DNA of 41,464 nucleotides, taken from the NCBI GenBank assembly GCA_046757065.1, contig JBHHXL010000003.1, positions 1 to 41,464 of the forward strand, in the 5' to 3' direction. Below, in pieces: positions 6,688-41,388 of the stretch. Under the pieces are notes generated by a model. The model ran no database searches. It saw only the letters and a list, made by a program, of their open reading frames with translations, and was not told the origin of the DNA. This stretch comes from Anaerolineae bacterium (lineage in GTDB: Bacteria; Chloroflexota; Anaerolineae; 4572-78; JBHHXL01). Both the position numbers and the translations under genes were made by a program. The first letter of the stretch is position 1. Each line of letters starts with the position of its first letter.

Positions 6688-6696
6688 AGTAAAGGA

Positions 6697-6803
6697 GGCT
6701 CTTTGAGCTTTTATGGGGTTTTGTAGCACAAGCTGTTAGCTTGTGCGGGACAAACTAACACGCTCCGCGTGTCCTACATTACCACATAATTCCTCACAGA
6801 GCC
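6697..6803. mobile_element. 107-bp MITE (GGCTCT ends) carrying a GTAG-type REP pair, with a 9-bp target duplication
   Basis: TIRs GGCTCTTTGAG / CTCACAGAGCC. AGTAAAGGA is repeated at 6688-6696 and 6804-6812. Inverted sister copy at 41286-41388. Confidence 0.9.
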
Positions 6804-17350: not shown

Positions 17351-17464
17351 GACAAGGGCAGGGCTGCCCTGAACCGGAGCCGCCCCGTTCAAGGCCAAAA
17401 CGCGGCCTGCGGTTTCACGCGTTGAAATGCACTTCCGCTGCGCGTCCCACCCGGTTCGCCGGCC

Positions 17465-22995: not shown

Positions 22996-23098
22996 TTTTT
23001 CTACAGATGAGCCGCCCTGAACATGGCCATAGACCCGGAGGAAGTCGCGGTTTGCATTTTAACATAGTCTGAGTTGACGGGCAATCCCCCGGCGGGTT

Positions 23099-23180
23099 AA
23101 GTAATTGTCCGTAAATAACTTTTCACTCATTCCCAAGAAACACCCTGCAAAAATGCCAAGTTACTTCTGAACAACCACTA
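23099..23180 (+). mobile_element. 82-bp MITE, copy A
   Basis: AGTAATTGTCCGTAAATAACTT..AAGTTACTTCTGAACAACCACT imperfect TIRs; highly similar to copy B. Confidence 0.85.
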
Positions 23181-23233: not shown

Positions 23234-23315
23234 TAGTAACTGTCCGTAAATAACTTTTCACTTTTTCCCAAGAAACACCCTGCAAAAATGCCAAGTTATT
23301 TCTGGACAATCGCTA
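23234..23315 (+). mobile_element. 82-bp MITE, copy B
   Basis: TAGTAACTGTCCGTAAATAACTT..AAGTTATTTCTGGACAATCGCTA; ends 19 nt before the tkt ATG. Confidence 0.85.
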
Positions 23316-23334
23316 ACCAACTTGCGAAGGGAGT

Positions 23335-28673: not shown

Positions 28674-28793
28674 CCCTGTTGCTTCGTCTTGAATGTTCCG
28701 GCGCGCAGCGCGCAAGTTCATTGCAGCAACAGCCACCAATTATATATCAAGCGCACCGATTTGTTAATCGAATCACACCCGAAGGAGGTCCAG

Positions 28794-31843: not shown

Positions 31844-32173
31844 GTGTCACATTTTTGCGACCTGGAAAGCCGAGAGGCAAAGGAATTTTTCCCCGGCGCG
31901 CGCATCCGCACCTTTTGGGGCGACCAGATGCTGTTGTCCATCGTCGATCTGGACGCCAACGCCGAAGTGCCCGCGCACAACCACCCCCACGAGCAGGCCG
32001 GAACGGTCATATCCGGCGAGCTTGAGCTGACCATCGCCGGGGAGACGCGCCGGCTCAAGCCGGGGGATACCTACATTATCCCCGGCGGCGTCGAGCACAG
32101 CGCCAGAGCCGGCGCTGCCCCGGTCAGAGCCCTGGATGTGTTCAGCCCGGTCCGGGAGGATTACCAGTACTGA
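31844..32173 (+). CDS. Cupin domain protein
   Basis: PAHNHPHEQAG..SG, PGD..IPGGVEH, DVFSPVREDY. Confidence 0.92.
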   Translation: MSHFCDLESREAKEFFPGARIRTFWGDQMLLSIVDLDANAEVPAHNHPHEQAGTVISGELELTIAGETRRLKPGDTYIIPGGVEHSARAGAAPVRALDVFSPVREDYQY

Positions 32174-32206
32174 TTCCGGCCGCGGCTGCCATCCCCTATC
32201 GCCTGA

Positions 32207-32336
32207 TTGGCTGACAGATTTAACAATTCACCGCAGAGACGCAAAGAACGCAGAGAAAATTTATAAAAATCTCTGCGCGCTTCGCGTCGGCGTCTCGGCG
32301 GTGATTTCGACCCGAAATGTTAAATTTGTCAGTCAA
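32207..32336. mobile_element. 130-bp element: 19-bp TIR shell around a CACCGCAGAG REP-like hairpin
   Basis: TTGGCTGACAGATTTAACA / TGTTAAATTTGTCAGTCAA (17/19). Inner arms about 32228-32255 and 32271-32304. Confidence 0.8.
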
Positions 32337-32342
32337 GCAGCC

Positions 32343-33140
32343 CTATCGCAATCGATTCACCTTCTTCATAAAAGCCGTCACCCGCTCAGAATCGACCTCC
32401 CGCGCCCAGTGGCCGCCCTGCTTGAAGTACGAGCCAACGATCAGGGCGTCGGCCACGGCCAGATAGGTCCCCACATTCTCCAGGGTGACGCCCGATCCGA
32501 CCAGCACCGGCACATCGACTGCGGCTTTCACCCGTTGTAGCTCTTCGAGGCTGGCTTCAAGGCCGGTCGCCGCCCCGGTGACGATCAGGCCGTCGCTCAG
32601 GAAGAACTCGGCGGCGTGGGCCGTTTCGACAATGTCCACGTCGGCGGTAATGGCGTGGGAGGAATGTTTCTTCTTGATATCGGTCAGGATCAGGATGCGC
32701 TCCGCGCCGATCTGCCGCCGGTAGCGGAGCAGGTCGCCGGCCCCGGCCTCGATCAACCCTTCGTCGGCCACGTGGGCGAAGACGAACCCCTCGGCCCGGA
32801 TGAAATCCAGGCCCGCCGCCTGGGCCACAGCCAGCGCCTCGCGGTTGGCCCCGGCCAGGATTTGCACCCCGCAGGGCAGACCGCTGGCCTGTTTGACCTC
32901 GTAGCCAACGACCGCCATCGCCGCCACGATCTCCGGCCCGACGGCCCGGTTCAGGTAGGGCATGTCGTGCATGTTTTCGATGGCCAGGGCATCGATGCCG
33001 GCATTCTTGTAGACCTGCGCCTCCGCTCTGGCCTTGTCGATGATCTGCGGCAGGCCGCTCTTGAACTTCGGCGTGCCGGGCAGCGGCTCGACGTGAATCA
33101 TACCGATGATTGACTTTGAGTTTTTCAGGAAATTGTTCAT
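32343..33140 (-). CDS. BtpA/SgcQ family TIM-barrel protein
   Basis: IIGMIHVEPLPGTP, IENMHDMPY, FIRAE, DIKKKHS, DGLIVTG..TG, VLVGSGV, IVGSYFK. Confidence 0.93.
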   Translation of the reverse strand: MNNFLKNSKSIIGMIHVEPLPGTPKFKSGLPQIIDKARAEAQVYKNAGIDALAIENMHDMPYLNRAVGPEIVAAMAVVGYEVKQASGLPCGVQILAGANREALAVAQAAGLDFIRAEGFVFAHVADEGLIEAGAGDLLRYRRQIGAERILILTDIKKKHSSHAITADVDIVETAHAAEFFLSDGLIVTGAATGLEASLEELQRVKAAVDVPVLVGSGVTLENVGTYLAVADALIVGSYFKQGGHWAREVDSERVTAFMKKVNRLR

Positions 33141-33152
33141 TGATTCATCCAG

Positions 33153-33201
33153 ATTTGGGAGATTGGAGATTAGGGATTGGGGGATTTGCCATCCAATCTC
33201 C
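33153..33201. repeat. Short GATTGG-type tandem repeat with a fold-back
   Basis: GATTTGGGA GATTGGA GATTAGG GATTGG..CCAATCTCC. Confidence 0.55.
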
Positions 33202-33207
33202 TGAGGC

Positions 33208-36200
33208 TCAAGAAGAGTTCGCCGCGCCGGAGGGCAGATTGGCGCAGGTGCGCTCGTAGGGGATGTCGGGGCCGATGAATTCGTTCCATTCGTCCTGGGT
33301 CAGATTGCGCCACACCTGCTCGCAGACCCAATCGGCCAGGGTTTCCGTCCGCGCCCTCCAAATGAACGTTTTTCTATCTTCCCCCCCGGAGGCCAGCATT
33401 TGACCATCCGGGCTGAAGGCCAGGGCTTTGGCCGTACCGTTATGACCGGACAGCGAGGCGATGGGGGCCTCAGGCCGGTGCAAGTCCCACAGGCGCACGG
33501 TCCCATCGGCGCTGGCCGCGGCCAGGGTTTGGCCGTCCGGACTGAAGGCCACAGCCATCGCCCAATCCTCGTGGCCGGGCAAAATCCGGGAGCCGGCGTC
33601 GGGCTGGCCCAGGTCCCACAGGCGCACGGTCTCGTCGGCGCCGCCCGAGGCCAGCGTCCGGCCGTCCGGGCTGAAAGCGACGGACATCACCCATTGCTCG
33701 TGACCGCGCAAAACGGCCAGCGGCGGCGATTCGGGCCGGCCCAGGTCCCATAGGCGGATCGTCCTGTCGGCGCTCCCCGAGGCCAGCGTTTGACCGTCCG
33801 GACTGATAGCTACCGACCAGACCCGGCCCTCGTGACCCCGGAGAATGGCCGGCCCGGCCTCCGGCCGGCCTCGATCCCAGACGGCCACGGTCCGGTCCCA
33901 ACTGCCGGTAGCCAGAGTCCGGCCATCGGGGCTGAAGGCCAGGGCATAAACCCGGTCTTCGTGGCCAGGCAGCAACACGGGGGCGGCCTCCGGCCGGCCT
34001 GGCTGCCACAAATAGACCTCCCCCTTCAGCCCGCCCAGGGCCAGCGTTTCTCCATCCGGGCTGAAGGCAACGGACAGGGCCGGCTCCCCTGCCGGCAACG
34101 GAACCGGCAGCGCCTGGAAATCATCGAGAGGCCACAACTGCGCGCCCCCAAAACCGCTGGCAGAAGCCAGGGTGCGGCCATCGGGGCTGAAGGCGACCGA
34201 GATGACCCGTTCATTCTCGTTTAAGACGATGGGAACGGCACGAGGTTGGCCCAGGTCCCACAACCGCACCGTGTTATCCAGGCTGCCCGAGGCCAGCGTC
34301 CGGCCATCGGGGCTGAAAGCCACGGCCCGCACGGCGGTCCCGTGGCCGCGCAAAACGGCCGGCGCAGCGCCGGGTTGGTCGAGCCGCCACAGCCGCGCCG
34401 TGCGGTCGTCACTGGCCGAGGCCAGAGTCCGGCCGTCCGGGCTGAAGGTCACCTGCCGGACCTCGCCGTCGTGGCCGTCGAGGATGGCCGGGGCAGGGTC
34501 GGGCTGGCCCAGGTCCCACAGGCGTATGCTCCGGTCAATACTGCCGGAGGCCAGGGTTTGACCGTCCGGGCTGAAGGCCACGGACCTGATTCCCTGCTCG
34601 TGGCCGGGCAGGAGGGCCGGTTCCGCTTCAGGTTGGCCCAGGTCCCACAGCCACAACGTGCCATCGCCGCTGGCGGCGGCCAACGTTTGACCATCCGGGC
34701 TGAAGGCCACGGACAAAATATCCAGGTCCCCTTGACGGCCTCTCAGACTGAGCGGCGGCGCGCCGGGCTGTGTTAAATCCCACAACCGGATCAGGCCATC
34801 AGCGCTGCCGGAGGCCAGGGTCGCTCCATCAGGGCTGAAGGCCACGGAAAAGACGGTCAGCTCGCGCTCACGGAGGATCATCGGAGCGGCCTCAAGCCGG
34901 TTCAGGTCCCAGAGGCGGACCGCGCCATCGACGCCGCCGGAGGCCAGGGTCCGGCCATCGGGGCTGAAGGCCAGGGCCAGGACTTCGCCTTCGTGGCCGG
35001 CTAAGGCCAGCGGCGCAGCGCCGGGCTGGCTCAGGTCCCACAACAACACGCTTCCGTCGACGCCGGCCGAGGCCAGGGTCTGGCCATCGGGGCTGAAGGC
35101 GACGGCATTGACCACGCTTTGATGACCCTGCAGGACGACGCTGAAGTAAGGAACGCTCAGCACGGCCCGCAGCGCACCGTCGATCTCGCTCAGGCCCCGG
35201 TCCGGTTGCCTTTGGCTAAAGAAGTAAGCCTGGCGCGCCAGGAGCGCCCCGCGCTCGTCCTGCTTGCCCCGTTCCTGCTGGCGCGGCGCCTGGGCTGCCA
35301 GCGCCTGCGTGATGGAAACCAGACGCAATCGCTCGGAGCGGCGAAACTGAAGCTGGGCCACGACGGCCGCCGCCACCGCCAGCAAAAAGACGACCGCCAG
35401 CCCCAATGCCAATCGACGCAAGCGCCGGGCAGCCCTGGCCTGCTCCTCGGCCCGCCGTTGCTGCTCGGCGGCCAGGGCCCGCGCCTGGGCCAGCTCCCGC
35501 TGCCGGGCCGCCTCTTTCTCCCGCGCCGTAGCCTCGACCGCGGCCCGGCTGGCTTCCACCAAATCGGACAGGGCCTGGTCGTAACCCAGATCGGCCGCGT
35601 CGGGGCTGGCCAGCCAGCGCCCGGCTTCGCGCAGCTCCACCTCATCCAGCAAACCGCCGGTTTCCCGCCCCAGGCGGATCCACTCGGCGGTCTTGGCCTC
35701 CAGCCGCCGCCGGACCTGCTCCGCCTCGCGCCGTTCAACCAACCAGACTTGCAGGGTCGGCCAACCGGCGATCAGGGCTTCGTGGGCGATGTCTACCTGC
35801 CTATCCGCGCCCTCCTCCGCCCCGCTGAGGGTCAGCAGACGGCTCTCGGTCAAATGGCGCAGCGTTCGATCGAACAGATCGGCATCATCGCCGGCAGAGC
35901 GCAGGGCGGCGACCGGCTGCTGGCGGCGGGTGTCGGCCCGCCCTTCGCCAAACTGGATCAGACGCAAAAAGATGCGGCGAGCCATCGCCTGTTGGACCGG
36001 CGACAGGTCGGCCAAAGCAGCATCGGCCCGCCGCGTCATAGCGACCTGCAAGCCGGTTCGCTTCTCGTCGCCCAGAGCCAGGTAGGCGGTGAACGACATA
36101 ACCAGGGCTTCGTAGGCGCTGAGGGGCAGGAACCGGCGCAGCAGTCGCTCCCACAGGAGCACCAGGGTCTCCTGAACGAGGGGCAGAACGCCCGGCTCGC

Positions 36201-37242
36201 CAGCGGCATCCGCCACCAGACGTTCGACCAGGGCTGCCTCCACATACACCTCGACGTCCTCAGCCGGGCGCAGGATCGCCTGGCGCAATCCATCCTCTTC
36301 GAGAGGCACCACTTCCAGCCGGTGGCCCTGAATCTCAGCCCAAAGGGGCGTCGCCATCAAATCGGAATAGAAATCGGCCCGGACGGTCAGGACCACGTAG
36401 CAATCGGGGGCCTGGGCCAGATGCAGCAAAGCCTGCTGGAAGGGCACGGTGTCCCCTCGACTAAGGGTAAAGACCTCCTCAAACTGGTCCACGACCAGCA
36501 ACAGGCGTTGATCCCGCGGGCGTTGCCCAGGCAGAGCCGCCGTCAGAGCCGCCATTGGCCGCTCGCCGGGCCGCAGCGCGCGGACCAGCCACCCGCCGGA
36601 GCCGAACAGCCCGCTTCGGCGCAGCGCCGGAACCAGCCCGGCGAAGACCAGCGAGGACTTGCCGCTGCCCGATGGGCCGATCACGGCCAGAAACGGGTGC
36701 AGGCGCAACCGCTCCAAAAGCTCCTGCACCTCCCGATCGCGCCCGTAGAATCGAGCGCTGTCTGCTTCGTCAAACGGGACCATACCGGGGTAGGGGCAGG
36801 CCGGCTTCGGGGCCGGGCCGGGCAGCGGAACCTGCAAGGCCACAGACAGCCGTTCCACGACCTGGGGCCAATCAGCCGGGTCAATCGCGTTGAGGGAGGT
36901 GAGCATCGCCAACCGGGGCGGCAGCCGGACCGGTTTGAGGACCAGGGGGATGACGGGCCAGATGGCCGATTCCAGACCGTACGTCTGGGCCAGCAAATCC
37001 GTGAACTGGTTGGAACCATCGGCCAGGTAGGCCGGGGAGAGGACAAGCAAGATGTGCCGGCTCTCGCGCACGGCTCGCTCGAACTCCAGCAGGCGGGGCA
37101 CGCCCAGGGCAAAGGCCGCCTCCGAATGGCAGCGCAGGCCGGCCCCGGCCAGCGCATCGAGCAGGTAGCCCTCGACCCAGGCCCGGTCGGCCTCGGCGTA
37201 AGAAACAAAAAGATCGTAGGTAAAATCGGGCGTGTCGATCAT
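33208..37242 (-). CDS. TIR - STAND NTPase (nSTAND1-like) - TM - 14x WD40 protein
   Basis: YDLFVSY..ILLVLSPAY..IPL (TIR), [45 protein letters not shown], one hydrophobic helix, 14 GH..FSPDG..W repeats. ATG at 37242 after AGAGG. Confidence 0.93.
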   Translation of the reverse strand: MIDTPDFTYDLFVSYAEADRAWVEGYLLDALAGAGLRCHSEAAFALGVPRLLEFERAVRESRHILLVLSPAYLADGSNQFTDLLAQTYGLESAIWPVIPLVLKPVRLPPRLAMLTSLNAIDPADWPQVVERLSVALQVPLPGPAPKPACPYPGMVPFDEADSARFYGRDREVQELLERLRLHPFLAVIGPSGSGKSSLVFAGLVPALRRSGLFGSGGWLVRALRPGERPMAALTAALPGQRPRDQRLLLVVDQFEEVFTLSRGDTVPFQQALLHLAQAPDCYVVLTVRADFYSDLMATPLWAEIQGHRLEVVPLEEDGLRQAILRPAEDVEVYVEAALVERLVADAAGEPGVLPLVQETLVLLWERLLRRFLPLSAYEALVMSFTAYLALGDEKRTGLQVAMTRRADAALADLSPVQQAMARRIFLRLIQFGEGRADTRRQQPVAALRSAGDDADLFDRTLRHLTESRLLTLSGAEEGADRQVDIAHEALIAGWPTLQVWLVERREAEQVRRRLEAKTAEWIRLGRETGGLLDEVELREAGRWLASPDAADLGYDQALSDLVEASRAAVEATAREKEAARQRELAQARALAAEQQRRAEEQARAARRLRRLALGLAVVFLLAVAAAVVAQLQFRRSERLRLVSITQALAAQAPRQQERGKQDERGALLARQAYFFSQRQPDRGLSEIDGALRAVLSVPYFSVVLQGHQSVVNAVAFSPDGQTLASAGVDGSVLLWDLSQPGAAPLALAGHEGEVLALAFSPDGRTLASGGVDGAVRLWDLNRLEAAPMILRERELTVFSVAFSPDGATLASGSADGLIRLWDLTQPGAPPLSLRGRQGDLDILSVAFSPDGQTLAAASGDGTLWLWDLGQPEAEPALLPGHEQGIRSVAFSPDGQTLASGSIDRSIRLWDLGQPDPAPAILDGHDGEVRQVTFSPDGRTLASASDDRTARLWRLDQPGAAPAVLRGHGTAVRAVAFSPDGRTLASGSLDNTVRLWDLGQPRAVPIVLNENERVISVAFSPDGRTLASASGFGGAQLWPLDDFQALPVPLPAGEPALSVAFSPDGETLALGGLKGEVYLWQPGRPEAAPVLLPGHEDRVYALAFSPDGRTLATGSWDRTVAVWDRGRPEAGPAILRGHEGRVWSVAISPDGQTLASGSADRTIRLWDLGRPESPPLAVLRGHEQWVMSVAFSPDGRTLASGGADETVRLWDLGQPDAGSRILPGHEDWAMAVAFSPDGQTLAAASADGTVRLWDLHRPEAPIASLSGHNGTAKALAFSPDGQMLASGGEDRKTFIWRARTETLADWVCEQVWRNLTQDEWNEFIGPDIPYERTCANLPSGAANSS

Positions 37243-37249
37243 GGACCTC

Positions 37250-38650
37250 TTACGGGTTGACGGTCGGCGACGGGAAGACATCAGGCGTCGGCTCCTCCGT
37301 CGGCGTGGGCGTAAACGTCGCCGACGGGGTGATAACCACTGTCGGTGACGGGAAGGGCTCCGGCGTCGGTTCATCGGTGGGCGTCGAGGTCGGCGTATCA
37401 ATCGAAGTCGGCGCACTGGTCGGCGACGGGAAGATCTCCGGCGTCGGCTCCTCCGTCGGCGTGGGGGTGTCGGTCGGTGTCGGGGTGTTGGTCGCCGTGG
37501 ACGTGTTGGTAGGCGTCGAGGTCGGCGTATCGATCGAGGTCGGCGCACTGGTCGGCGTGTCGGTCGGGTTGGGGGTCGGCGTTCCGGTTTCGGTGGGGGT
37601 GTCTGTCACGGTCGGGGTGCTGGTTACCGTGGGCGAATCGGTCGGCGGGCCGCTTGGAGTGTCGGTCGGCGTGGGCACCGAGATAAATGTCGGCGTGGGG
37701 GTGATCGTTGGCAATGGGGTGAACGTCAGCGTAGCTGTTGGAGGCACGAACGTTGCATCTGGCGTGGAAGTAGCGGCGGGGGGCGGCAGCGGGGTCACCG
37801 GCGTCAATGACGCCGTAGCCGTCGGCGAGGCGGGGGGCGGCGGGAGGAGGGGCGCCCGGGCCAGAGTCGGGGTTGGCCTCGGCCCCGAGAAAAAGGCGGA
37901 CAGGGCCAGGTAGCCCCCGCCACAGACCAACAGCAGCAAGACCAGCAGGGCCGGGATACCCACCCACAGCCAGCGGCTCGACCAGGGCGAGGAGGGTTGC
38001 CGGGCCGGAGTCGTCTTCTGCCAGGCCAGGGCCGTTTCGGCGCTGGCGATCATCGTCGCCACGTCCTTATAATCGCCTGCCGCGTCTCGCAGGCGGTGGA
38101 AATATTCCAGGGCCACCCGCCAGCGCCCGGCGTCGAAATGCCGGCGGCCCCGGGCATACAGCCCCGCCCAGTCCTGCTGTTGCCTGGCCCGGTTCAGGCC
38201 GGCGGCGGCTCCAGCGTGGGCCGGGTCCAACTCCAGAACGGCCTGTAACTTCTGGATGGCCGCCGCCCAATCCTCGCCGGCCAGGGCCGCCTGCGCCTGG
38301 TCAAATAACCGTCCGGCCTGGTCGCGGTCCTGCTCCCCGGCCAACCTTCTTTCGAGGGCGACAACGATGCTGTCCACCCCCTTGTAATTGCCATCCAGGG
38401 CTTGCAGGCGGCGAAAGCAGGCCAGGGCTTTGGACAGACGACCGGCTTCAACCTGGGCCTGCCCTTCGGCGTACAGGTCTGCCAGAACCTGCCGATGTCT
38501 GGCCTGGCTCAAACGAGCCGTCGCCTGGGGATGCCCCGGCTTCAGCTTGAGCGCAGCTTGCAGATTCTCGATGGCCGTGGCCCAATCCCCCCTGGCCCAG
38601 GCCGCCTGCGCTTCTTGGACGAGCGAATGGAAATCCGAATCTTCGGCCAT
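37250..38650 (-). CDS. TPR-repeat protein with a single TM helix and a Pro/Thr-rich tail
   Basis: Two ~100-aa helical repeats, TM segment [24 protein letters not shown], then ~210 aa of PT repeats to the stop. Ends 7 nt before the TIR gene. Confidence 0.88.
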
Positions 38651-38673: not shown

Positions 38674-38774
38674 CTCAGTAGACCCAATTTGTAGCGCAAA
38701 CTGTTACGCTTCGCGTGCGCGGGTCAAACTAACAGTTTGACCTGCATAGCAAGCCCAGAATTGGATCGGCTGAG
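38674..38774. repeat. GTAG-type REP pair within an imperfect IR shell
   Basis: GTAGCGCAAACTGTTA..GGGTCAAACTAACAGTTTGACCTGC is homologous to the core at 6722-6778 and 41311-41361. Shell CTCAGTAGACCCAATT / AATTGGATCGGCTGAG (13/16). Confidence 0.75.
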
Positions 38775-41153: not shown

Positions 41154-41176
41154 CAATCTCCAACCGCCGAAAGAAA

Positions 41177-41255
41177 TGGCTCACGGATTTTCACAGATAC
41201 ACACGGAAAAAATAATTCCAGAAACCTGTGTTCATCTGCGTTCATCCGTGAGCCA
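41177..41255. repeat. CACGGAT-type REP-like hairpin
   Basis: TGGCTCACGGAT / ATCCGTGAGCCA perfect 12-bp outer IR with ~10-nt internal repeats; lies just upstream of the lipoprotein RBS. Confidence 0.8.
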
Positions 41256-41285
41256 AATTCTTGCCTTATTTGTCAAAGAATTACC

Positions 41286-41388
41286 GGCTCTATGAGGAAT
41301 TGTGTGGTAATGTAGGACAAACTGTTAGTTTGTCCCGCACAAGCTAACAGCTTGTGCTACAAAACCCCATAAAAAAGCTCAAAGAGCC
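41286..41388. mobile_element. 103-bp MITE (GGCTCT ends), inverted sister of 6697-6803, with an 8-bp target duplication
   Basis: GGCTCTATGAG / CTCAAAGAGCC. GAATTACC at 41278-41285 and 41389-41396. Confidence 0.9.

What the first reader, a model, noticed from the sequence alone, without database searches (positions are those of the whole stretch)
6761..6769. Recurrent 9-for-3 substitution that installs an ultra-stable GCGNAGC mini-hairpin in repeat arms
Seen: at three sites where the original state can be read from a sister copy or the partner arm, CGCTNCGCG replaces exactly 3 nt. Site 6761-6769: CAAACTAACA[CGCTCCGCG]TGTCCTACA, versus [GTT] in the 41286-41388 copy. Site 38707-38715: GCGCAAACTGTTA[CGCTTCGCG]TGCGC, where the palindrome predicts [GTT]. 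Site 32278-32286: CTCTGCG[CGCTTCGCG]TCGGCG, where the partner arm predicts [TTC]. The sites lie in two unrelated repeat families and at different positions within the arms. Further intergenic copies without a reference occur at 17436-17444 and, reversed, at 28702-28710. Established: the complement CGC-GNA-GCG contains d(GCGNAGC), an exceptionally stable, nuclease-resistant DNA mini-hairpin, and N varies here as that motif tolerates. Inference: a dedicated cut-and-write or template-switch process acting on extruded ssDNA hairpins (for example HUH/RAYT or GIY-YIG mediated), i.e. a 9-bp mobile unit. I do not recognise a described system with this 9-for-3 signature.
Basis: partly seen in the sequence, partly recalled or inferred. 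Interest (0 to 1): 0.85.

Follow-up and report, generated by a model that had tools for sequence, protein, structure and literature searches.

The report
Mini-hairpin cassettes written into genome repeats
A 9-letter, self-folding DNA "mini-hairpin" repeatedly takes the place of three native letters in many unrelated repeat families of this bacterium, a regular pattern for which I found no described mechanism.

Summary
The three sites (6761, 32278, 38707) exist as described. Whole-genome comparison of repeat copies shows a sharp rule. A 3-bp-stem hairpin of the GCGNAGC / GCGNNAGC "mini-hairpin DNA" class replaces exactly as many native letters as its loop holds: 9-for-3 or 10-for-4, net +6. This occurs in about 23 different sequence contexts. 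CGCTTCGCG occurs 156 times in non-coding DNA against 12.5 expected. The same 9-for-3 swap occurs in a different repeat family of a same-order relative.

- Site 6761 is not a fresh event. It is the consensus state of a roughly 50-copy REP/REPIN subfamily whose RAYT gene lies elsewhere in the genome.
- Sites 6761 and 38707 are mirror-equivalent positions in one REP superfamily.
- N is not free: T far exceeds C, and G and A are not enriched.
- Sites 17436 and 28702 look like chance.

No test ties the process to RAYT/HUH. My best reading (about 0.4) is short templated patch transfer between repeats on single-stranded DNA, followed by hitch-hiking on ssDNA-mobilised elements. That model does not predict the loop-length rule, which stays unexplained. 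The host is an Anaerolineae (Chloroflexota) MAG.

The parts
6761..6769 (+). Mini-hairpin CGCTCCGCG (CGC stem, TCC loop; GCGGAGC on the other strand). It sits in the second hairpin of a REP doublet, in place of the GTT seen in the sister copy.
   Evidence: With identical 8-nt flanks, 50 genome copies carry the hairpin (32 C-loop, 18 T-loop) and 15 carry 3 nt (14 GTT, 1 GCT). The DNA fold gives a 6-bp stem with a triloop.
6696..6800 (+). One copy of a ~105-bp REPIN-like element: two inverted GTAG-plus-palindrome REP units with longer inverted flanks. This is the hairpin-bearing state.
   Evidence: BLAST and MAFFT of 44 full-length copies taken from 87 BLAST rows. REP census: 186 empty units, 49 filled in the GTAG-proximal arm, 4 filled in the GTAG-distal arm.
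41289..41388 (-). Sister copy of the same element in the empty state. The native triplet is at 41320-41322 (AAC on the plus strand, GTT on the element's strand), and both REP hairpins are perfect 9-bp palindromes.
   Evidence: MFE -18.2 kcal/mol, two 9-bp stems.
38707..38715 (+). Mini-hairpin CGCTTCGCG in the first hairpin (GTAG-distal arm) of another REP doublet (about 38690-38748). This is the mirror-equivalent position to 6761.
   Evidence: With its exact 8-nt flanks, 1 copy is filled and 10 are empty (9 GTT, 1 TT). A sister context has 2 filled and 10 empty. Only 4 such units exist genome-wide. Logan contigs of three runs end and begin at 38713|38714.
32278..32286 (+). Mini-hairpin CGCTTCGCG inside the 3' arm of a long hairpin in an unrelated MITE-like element. 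In the fold it forms a side branch.
   Evidence: The closest paralog, C121:3114-3246, has AGC instead, while two diverged paralogs (C650, C372) also carry the 9-mer. An independent contig (run X3, record 21) spans 32209-33963 without gaps.
32202..32340 (+). The MITE-like element that hosts 32278: outer inverted repeats around an inner long hairpin.
   Evidence: BLAST of 32151-32420 against the genome. The paralog match covers query positions 52-190. Fold.

Best explanation
WHAT IT IS. The 9-mer is an instance of 'mini-hairpin DNA': GCGNAGC, the extraordinarily stable GNA-triloop hairpin, plus one extra closing pair.

In this Anaerolineae genome, 9-nt (triloop) and 10-nt (tetraloop, GCGNNAGC) versions occupy slots in about 23 unrelated intergenic repeat contexts. 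These include REP hairpin arms, hairpin tips, tandem heptamer or decamer word arrays, and MITE interiors. Sister copies have just 3 or 4 native letters in the same slot. The gain is therefore always the two 3-nt stem arms (+6).

HOW I THINK IT WORKS.
1. Acquisition is rare. I infer it happens by copying a short patch from an existing copy while the repeat is single-stranded, through template switching or short-patch conversion.
2. The hairpin-bearing variant then spreads because its host element is copied. This is shown for the REPIN at 6761, which has about 50 copies.
3. I infer the variant is favoured because a self-nucleating hairpin that resists SSB and nucleases helps elements handled as ssDNA. 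Possible benefits are hairpin recognition by the RAYT next to GTAG, or priming of the complementary strand, as at phage and plasmid ssi sites.

No dedicated 9-bp transposition enzyme is needed in this reading.
For: Motif class:
- 36 of 39 loop-length hairpin events have CGC or GGC stems, which contain GCGNAGC or GCGNNAGC. The definition comes from passages of PMC13037366.

Enrichment:
- 156 observed against 12.5 expected in non-coding DNA.
- It is the top loop among all 64 CGC-NNN-GCG variants in non-coding DNA.

The +6 rule:
- (9,3) = 46 events against (9,2) = 14 and (9,4) = 4. (10,4) = 36 against (10,3) = 8 and (10,5) = 17.
- Stem-3/loop-3 hairpins pair with a 3-nt short form in 28 of 37 cases. 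Stem-3/loop-4 hairpins pair with a 4-nt short form in 11 of 14.
- With exact 8+8 flanks, the alternative state is 3 nt in 42 of 127 cases (next highest 16) and 4 nt in 14 of 49 (next highest 6). This gives 23 context clusters.
- In an unbiased census this 9-mer is the top inserted block, with 9 contexts. Among strings outside the hairpin class the best has 3; a 10-nt tetraloop relative has 5.

Hitch-hiking:
- 35 near-identical filled REPIN copies.
- A RAYT (NF047646, 87.9 bits against a cut-off of 80) flanked by REP doublets on contig C72.
- The filled REP still folds as a hairpin next to GTAG.

Copying from existing copies:
- Flanks are enriched for CA...T (107, 90 and 101 of 159).
- Some events carry these flanks and have other net lengths.
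- The G027 family holds mixed states (AGC+TTCGCG and CGC alone), as heteroduplex repair between filled and empty copies would give.
- There are four-gamete violations among REPIN copies.

DNA-level rather than RNA-level:
- No bias relative to transcription, 44 sense against 42 antisense.
- No Rfam family matched.

Not an assembly artefact:
- Contigs from three separately assembled runs agree.
Against: - Simple template switching or patch conversion does not predict that the replaced stretch equals the loop length (3 for triloops, 4 for tetraloops). This rule is unexplained.
- Most events have exact 9- or 10-nt boundaries without donor flanks, which looks more like a defined unit.
- Transfers between unrelated families lack flanking homology.
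- The motif-rich state is confined to a few genomes of one order: own 67 copies of the 12-mer, G027 35, G019 10, G029 10, G012 6. The remaining 26 of 31 order genomes have 3 or fewer, and the 117 genomes of the class sample outside the order have 5 or fewer. That hints at a lineage-specific factor.
- The proposed benefit to ssDNA-mobilised elements is untested.
- In some families the filled copies are not the majority.
- In the 32278 family the nearest paralog is empty while more distant ones are filled. Loss, or repeated change, must therefore also occur.
Confidence: 0.4

Rival explanations
1. A dedicated write process. An enzyme acting on extruded ssDNA (HUH/RAYT, another nuclease-ligase, or a templated polymerase) replaces a 3-4-nt stretch with a closed mini-hairpin. 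This would make a 9-10-nt unit the smallest mobile or 'written' element known.
For: - Boundaries are exact and the loop-length rule is strict.
- There are about 23 unrelated contexts, many with a single filled copy beside many empties: 1 against 14, 1 against 12, 1 against 16.
- The same swap occurs in a different repeat family in G027.
- The distribution across lineages is patchy.
- All 5 motif-rich genomes have Y1_Tnp.
Against: - No candidate gene was found.
- Y1_Tnp is also present in 15 of 26 motif-poor genomes.
- There is no target-site duplication, no conserved target beyond a weak A...T preference, and no strand bias.
- Stems and loops vary (CGC, GGC, CCC; GAA, GGA, AGA, GCAA, GATA), which one template would not give.
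- No polymorphic site was seen in contigs.
Confidence: 0.2
2. A host-function site under selection. The mini-hairpin would be a signal, such as a priming or ssi site, a hairpin promoter of the N4 type, or a binding site for a nucleoid or repair protein. It would be kept wherever it arises, and repeats are simply where it is tolerated.
For: - The published natural roles of the motif are exactly such signals: G4/ST-1/alpha3 primase sites, RSF1010 ssiA, and N4 vRNAP promoters with GGA or GAA loops (PMC13037366, passages).
- GAA and GGA are the two dominant loops here.
- At one slot of the word-array family, several different GNA hairpins alternate: a 9-nt GGC-stem form and an 11-nt GGCC-stem form.
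- In G019 the stems at the palindrome tip show compensatory changes.
Against: - Selection does not explain how an identical 9-mer arises with +6 in about 23 places.
- There is no positional relation to genes and no orientation bias.
- Most copies sit inside mobile repeats rather than at fixed genomic landmarks.
Confidence: 0.15
3. A few old events plus modular polymorphism. The hairpin and empty states would be ancient alternative modules of a few mosaic repeat superfamilies, reshuffled by recombination between copies. The count of independent events would then be inflated, and nothing would be active now.
For: - 6761 and 38707 share one superfamily, and a further family shares a similar palindrome core.
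- Intergenic regions are mosaics of nested modules.
- In tandem heptamer arrays, +6 cannot be told apart from +13 minus one unit.
- Diverged paralogs (77-82% identical) share the 9-mer at 32278's position.
Against: - The contexts have unrelated flanks.
- Many filled sites are single copies within otherwise near-identical families.
- The same rule holds in another genome's unrelated MITE.
- The +6 ridge is absent from hairpin-free blocks apart from a small bump: 116 at +5, 208 at +6, 178 at +7.
Confidence: 0.15
4. A sequencing or assembly artefact at hairpins.
For: - Mini-hairpins are known to disturb Sanger reads (PMC13037366).
- Contigs break inside the motif at 38713|38714.
- 83 of 211 non-coding sites lie near contig ends.
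Against: - Contigs from three runs, assembled separately by another pipeline, give the same letters across 32278 and 28702.
- The states are consistent across about 50 copies at roughly 35x depth.
- The same motif occurs in other assemblies.
Confidence: 0.02

Closest known systems
Mini-hairpin DNA, d(GCGNAGC) / d(GCGNNAGC) (Hirao and co-workers; review PMC13037366, passages read)
   Same: The sequence class is identical for both the triloop and the tetraloop forms. GAA and GGA loops dominate here, and those are the loops named in the review for N4 promoters. A CCGAAGG-type form also occurs here.
   Different: The review describes single functional sites in phage and plasmid origins and promoters, and says the motif is rarer than chance in natural DNA. 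Here there are hundreds of copies, about 12-fold over expectation in non-coding DNA, sitting in repeats with a replace-the-loop-length rule.
Small dispersed repeats (SDR) of heterocyst-forming cyanobacteria (Elhai et al. 2008, Genome Res 18:1484). This is recalled: the paper is not held, and I saw only its citation in PMC3116915.
   Same: They are very small elements found in many contexts. As I recall, they are often embedded in tandem heptamer arrays and mini-transposons, are hairpin-forming and are lineage-restricted.
   Different: SDRs are 21-27 nt (recalled); these are 9-10 nt. The host here is Chloroflexota, not cyanobacteria. I do not recall a loop-length replacement rule being described for SDRs.
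REP / REPIN elements with RAYT (Bertels & Rainey 2011, PMC3116915, passages only; the GTAG rule is recalled)
   Same: The host element of 6761 and 38707 is a REP doublet with GTAG heads, and a RAYT gene flanked by REP doublets is present.
   Different: REPIN biology explains how the hairpin-bearing variant was copied. It does not explain how a 9-mer replaced 3 nt, nor why the same swap occurs in non-REP repeats.
Quasipalindrome template-switch mutagenesis (Ripley-type) and short-patch ectopic conversion (recalled)
   Same: It produces templated multi-base replacements in hairpin-prone DNA with exact boundaries. It could also convert a filled arm back to the perfect palindrome (9 to 3).
   Different: It copies from the partner arm. 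It therefore makes palindromes more perfect, rather than installing the same foreign 9-mer in unrelated contexts.
Mobile GC-rich palindromic clusters and double-hairpin elements of fungal mitochondrial genomes (recalled)
   Same: They are short GC-rich hairpins that invade spacers and other repeats.
   Different: They are several times longer, live in organelle genomes, and (as recalled) insert rather than replace a loop-length stretch.

Membership tests
Mini-hairpin DNA motif (GCGNAGC / GCGNNAGC) | Sequence pattern GCG-N-AGC or GCG-NN-AGC | tested here: met
   All three window sites contain it on the complementary strand. 477 non-coding sites of the class with one extra closing pair. The definition comes from PMC13037366.
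Mini-hairpin DNA motif (GCGNAGC / GCGNNAGC) | Any N tolerated in the loop | tested here: inconclusive
   On the G-rich strand, GAA (156) and GGA (47) are enriched in non-coding DNA. Other loops are near expectation. Usage is therefore biased, which neither supports nor contradicts structural tolerance.
Mini-hairpin DNA motif (GCGNAGC / GCGNNAGC) | Extraordinary thermal stability and nuclease resistance; sheared G-A pair | not testable with these tools
   Nearest-neighbour folding predicts the hairpins. The review says standard parameters do not capture the extra stability.
REP / REPIN with RAYT | GTAG head followed by an (imperfect) palindrome, in many extragenic copies (rule recalled) | tested here: met
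   239 GTAG-oriented units matched my patterns: 186 empty, 49 + 4 filled.
REP / REPIN with RAYT | Units paired in inverted orientation (REPIN) | tested here: met
   fold.
REP / REPIN with RAYT | A RAYT gene flanked by REPs | tested here: met
   A 226-aa ORF on C72 matches NF047646 at 87.9 bits (cut-off 80). REP doublets lie on both sides.
REP / REPIN with RAYT | RAYT-dependent mobility | not testable with these tools
   Only inferred, from 35 near-identical copies.
Small dispersed repeats (SDR, cyanobacteria) | Unit of 21-27 nt (recalled) | tested here: not met
   The units here are 9-10 nt.
Small dispersed repeats (SDR, cyanobacteria) | Many contexts, including heptamer arrays and mini-transposons (recalled) | tested here: met
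Small dispersed repeats (SDR, cyanobacteria) | Confined to one cyanobacterial subgroup (recalled) | tested here: not met
   The best relatives of the window's transketolase are Anaerolineae MAGs at 67% identity.
Cut-and-paste or ssDNA transposon (MITE / IS200-IS605-type PATE) | Target-site duplication, or insertion next to a fixed target without loss of host letters | tested here: not met
   Host letters are replaced, not duplicated. The flanks show only a weak A...T preference.
   5 of 5 motif-rich and 15 of 26 motif-poor same-order genomes have PF01797. Related genomes are not independent samples.
   No search was run.

The most novel reading that the evidence does not exclude
A lineage-specific, structure-directed DNA-writing process. 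Wherever a repeat exposes a 3-4-nt stretch as single-stranded DNA, the stretch is rebuilt as a closed GNA/GNNA mini-hairpin by adding a 3-bp GC stem. The result would be the smallest mobile or 'written' genetic unit known (9-10 nt), driven by a factor present only in a few genomes of this Anaerolineae order.
Probability: 0.2. Interest if true: 0.9.

Novelty: new variant of a known kind. Interest (0 to 1): 0.68.

Why it matters
- If the swaps are real events, as the evidence says, DNA units of only 9-10 nt can spread between unrelated repeats. That is well below the size of any element with a described mobility mechanism.
- The strict rule, in which the stem is gained and a loop-length stretch is replaced, is a concrete signature a mechanism must explain.
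- It links a well-studied biophysical oddity, the ultra-stable mini-hairpin, to genome evolution. The motif is said to be rarer than chance in natural DNA.
- It suggests that REPIN/MITE-type elements can be 'upgraded' by acquiring self-nucleating hairpins.
- It offers a testable system: compare filled and empty REPs with their RAYT, and test priming on ssDNA.
- It also warns annotators that such 9-mers in repeats are neither noise nor assembly error.

Tried and rejected
- Window-only enrichment: not significant. The case rests on the whole genome.
- RNA-level reading (terminator or UTR element): there is no orientation bias relative to flanking genes, 44 against 42. No Rfam family matched on 20 loci from relatives; only sub-threshold miRNA look-alikes appeared.
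- Replication-strand bias: no link to local GC skew. This is a weak test on short contigs.
- Polymorphism in the population: only Logan contigs were available for the three holder runs. The single '6 left out at 32281' contig in X1 is best explained by the paralog on C121. Contigs drop rare variants, so this says nothing about activity.
- CRISPR-repeat origin of the motif: my crude array finder found no array in the assembly.
- Loss by simple deletion: removing any 6 contiguous letters of the 9-mer cannot give the observed native triplets, by inspection.
- Excision-footprint and P-nucleotide models: these would keep or mirror the flanks, which is not what is seen.
- Relation between the replaced triplet and the loop: identical (TTC) in two contexts, otherwise unrelated.
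- The Elhai 2008 paper is not held.
- Literature searches found no description of mini-hairpins replacing loop-length stretches in repeats. This is three searches of the held library, not proof that none is in print. No supplementary files were requested.
- The G029 family (5 of 5 rows filled) and the G019 family (13 of 13 rows with a hairpin tip) gave no empty state, so they neither test nor contradict the rule.

Full report
**1. What is at the coordinates**

The window is contig C3 of a 5.27-Mb, 708-contig MAG with 61.7% G+C. The best relatives of its transketolase are Anaerolineae MAGs at 67% identity. Three DNA runs from one study, labelled hydrothermal vent metagenome, hold the stretch.

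- **6761-6769.** CGCTCCGCG lies in the second hairpin of a doublet of GTAG-headed palindromes. The sister copy at 41289-41388 (minus strand) has GTT there and is otherwise almost identical.
- **38707-38715.** CGCTTCGCG lies in the first hairpin of another such doublet.
- **32278-32286.** CGCTTCGCG lies in the 3' arm of a long hairpin inside an unrelated MITE-like element.

**2. The host repeat of 6761 and 38707 is a REP/REPIN family**

- In GTAG orientation I counted 186 perfect-palindrome units. A further 49 carry the hairpin in the GTAG-proximal arm, and 4 carry it in the distal arm.
- A 226-aa ORF on contig C72 matches the NCBIfam equivalog 'REP-associated tyrosine transposase' at 87.9 bits against a cut-off of 80. 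It is flanked by REP doublets, both in the empty state.
- A separate IS200/IS605 transposase lies beside cas1 on C527.
- Of 44 full-length copies of the ~105-bp element, 35 are filled and near-identical. By my count of the rows, 22 have the C loop and 13 the T loop. Five near-identical copies are empty and 4 diverged copies are empty.
- One acquisition followed by a burst of copying therefore explains 6761. It is not a fresh event.
- The T/C loop state breaks the four-gamete rule with two other variable sites. This points to recurrent change or conversion among copies.

**3. Enrichment**

| Scope | 9-mer | Observed | Expected |
|---|---|---|---|
| Window, both strands | CGCTNCGCG | 8 | 4.87 (not significant) |
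| Genome | CGCTTCGCG | 283 | 93 |
| Genome | CGCTCCGCG | 102 | 63 |
| Genome | CGCTGCGCG | 176 | 191 |
| Genome | CGCTACGCG | 53 | 46 |
| Non-coding | CGCTTCGCG | 156 | 12.5 |
| Non-coding | CGCTCCGCG | 47 | 6.4 |

- The non-coding fraction comes from a home-made codon-bias gene caller that labels 83% of the genome as coding. The non-coding expectations use an order-4 model trained on non-coding DNA.
- Among all 64 CGC-NNN-GCG words, the TTC/GAA loop is the commonest in non-coding DNA.
- The flanks favour CA before the motif and T after it.

**4. The replacement rule**

I compared all non-coding segments with each other (2,735 segments, 0.93 Mb). I then cut each alignment into blocks bounded by at least 6 identical letters.

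- This 9-mer is the most frequent 'long form' by number of contexts, with 9 contexts and 147 pairs. Among strings outside the hairpin class the best has 3; a 10-nt tetraloop relative has 5.
- The table of long against short lengths has a ridge at net +6. (9,3) = 46 against (9,2) = 14 and (9,4) = 4. (10,4) = 36 against (10,3) = 8 and (10,5) = 17.
- Hairpins with a 3-bp stem and 3-nt loop pair with a 3-nt short form in 28 of 37 cases. Those with a 4-nt loop pair with a 4-nt short form in 11 of 14. None with a 4- or 5-bp stem follows the rule.
- The stems are CGC (28), GGC (8), CCC (2) and one other. Thirty-six of these 39 events therefore contain GCGNAGC or GCGNNAGC.
- For all blocks in which only one form holds such a hairpin, the net length peaks at +6: 145 of 421 for triloops and 34 of 91 for tetraloops. 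Secondary peaks are +5 (76), -2 (64) and 0 (45).
  - The +5 blocks come from C-run contexts and from diverged copies.
  - The -2 blocks are an alternative 11-nt GNA hairpin at the same slot.
  - The 0 blocks I take, from their equal length, to be point variants; one search did not list them.
- Hairpin-free blocks decline smoothly, with a small bump: 116 at +5, 208 at +6, 178 at +7.
- With exact 8+8-nt flanks taken by program, the alternative state is 3 nt in 42 of 127 cases for triloops and 4 nt in 14 of 49 for tetraloops. This gives 23 context clusters. A few 1-against-1 pairs in GC-rich DNA may be chance.
- The contexts include REP arms, hairpin tips, tandem heptamer- and decamer-like word arrays, and MITE interiors.
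- Many filled sites are single copies beside many empties.

**5. Relatives**

- The 12-mer CACGCTTCGCGT occurs 67 times in this genome, against 0 for its reversed control. It occurs 35 times in G027, 10 in G019, 10 in G029 and 6 in G012. The other 26 of 31 same-order genomes have 3 or fewer.
- The 117 genomes of the class sample outside this order have 5 or fewer.
- In G027, a MITE family unrelated to any here was aligned in 33 rows:
  - 15 exact and 4 variant filled copies;
  - 9 copies with AGC and 1 with CGC in the same slot, which is again 9-for-3;
  - 1 complex copy;
  - 3 rows that are the element's other arm.
  - One of the variant filled copies reads AGC followed by the last six letters of the 9-mer.
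- In G019 the hairpin forms the tip of a long perfect palindrome in 13 of 13 rows, with several GNA-type loops and compensatory stem changes. In G029, 5 of 5 rows are filled.

**6. Tests of mechanism**

- Orientation relative to flanking genes is even (44 against 42) and unrelated to GC skew.
- Y1 transposase genes occur in 20 of 31 same-order genomes. They are in all 5 motif-rich genomes but also in 15 of 26 motif-poor ones.
- In the DNA fold, the filled REP exchanges its 9-bp palindrome for a 6-bp GC-rich triloop hairpin next to GTAG. At 32278 the hairpin is a side branch.
- Contigs from three runs, assembled separately, reproduce 32278 and 28702 without gaps. They break inside the motif at 38713|38714, as expected at a repeat branch.
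- No raw reads were available, so rare alleles cannot be judged.

**7. Reading**

Shown:
- a structure-defined cassette (mini-hairpin DNA, as defined in PMC13037366; passages read);
- a strict stem-gained, loop-length-replaced rule;
- many unrelated contexts;
- amplification by hitch-hiking on a REPIN;
- presence of the same swap in another genome.

Inferred: the way the cassette gets in.

I favour short templated patches copied from existing copies on single-stranded DNA, followed by preferential spread of hairpin-bearing elements. Flank preferences, some events with variable boundaries, mixed states in G027 and homoplasy among copies all fit copying and conversion. This model does not predict the loop-length rule or the lineage restriction. 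Those keep the dedicated-writer idea alive at about 0.2. A functional-signal reading and an old-modules reading are each at about 0.15.

**8. Comparison and novelty**

- The motif itself is known.
- The REP/RAYT host element is a normal member of its kind.
- The nearest described phenomenon is the 21-27-nt SDR elements of cyanobacteria. This is recalled; the paper is not held.
- In three searches of the held library I found no description of 9-10-nt mini-hairpins replacing loop-length stretches across repeat families.
- I class it as a new variant of a known kind, with a real chance of being something new in kind.

Noticed in passing
window 23098-23175 and 23236-23316: Two tandem-spaced copies of another high-copy repeat of about 80 nt. 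Summed contig depth there is about 770-940 against about 30-45 elsewhere, with many loose ends at its borders. Several of the genome's most over-represented 9-mers belong to it.
   Followed up: partly
window about 41165-41260: An inverted-repeat element built from roughly 10-nt 'words'. In the genome-wide census this word family is one of those that carries the 10-nt tetraloop hairpin (GATA loop) in place of 4 nt.
   Followed up: partly
genome contigs listed (33 sites): A conserved module of about 50 nt ends in the 9-mer. It is followed by a 7-nt inverted-repeat boundary that brackets varied nested inserts, including the REPIN. The intergenic DNA looks like a mosaic of nested mini-elements sharing the same short termini.
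   Followed up: partly
REPIN copies genome-wide: The loop letter of the hairpin is C in 22 and T in 13 otherwise near-identical copies. It breaks the four-gamete rule with two other sites. A loop C exposed in ssDNA may be a deamination hot spot, or the copies may convert each other.
   Followed up: no
L001 (G000:C527:1-2411): An IS200/IS605 transposase (NF033573, 92.5 bits) sits between a cas-like ORF fragment and a Cas1-like ORF. No CRISPR array was found in the assembly by a crude scan. The Cas1 naming is by eye, not by a search.
   Followed up: partly
word-array family, genome-wide: At one slot of this family four states alternate: 3 nt, a 9-nt GGC-stem GNA hairpin, an 11-nt GGCC-stem hairpin with a TTC/GAA loop (the ssiA-type core), and another form of 11-12 nt.
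   Followed up: partly
window 33208-37548 (minus strand): A 1,446-aa STAND NTPase (nSTAND1) with about 12 WD40 repeats. Contigs of all four runs show many internal joints and variant letters here, as expected for a repeat-rich gene or for related copies in the community.
   Followed up: no
G019 loci L154-L183: A palindromic family whose tip is always a CGC-NNN-GCG hairpin. The loop appears in both orientations, and there are compensatory changes in the pairs below it.
   Followed up: partly
genome-wide tandem arrays: Heptamer word arrays recall the STRR heptamers of cyanobacteria (recalled), although the host is Chloroflexota. A paper on shared heptamer repeats in Beggiatoaceae appeared in a search listing only (PMC4679880).
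   Followed up: no
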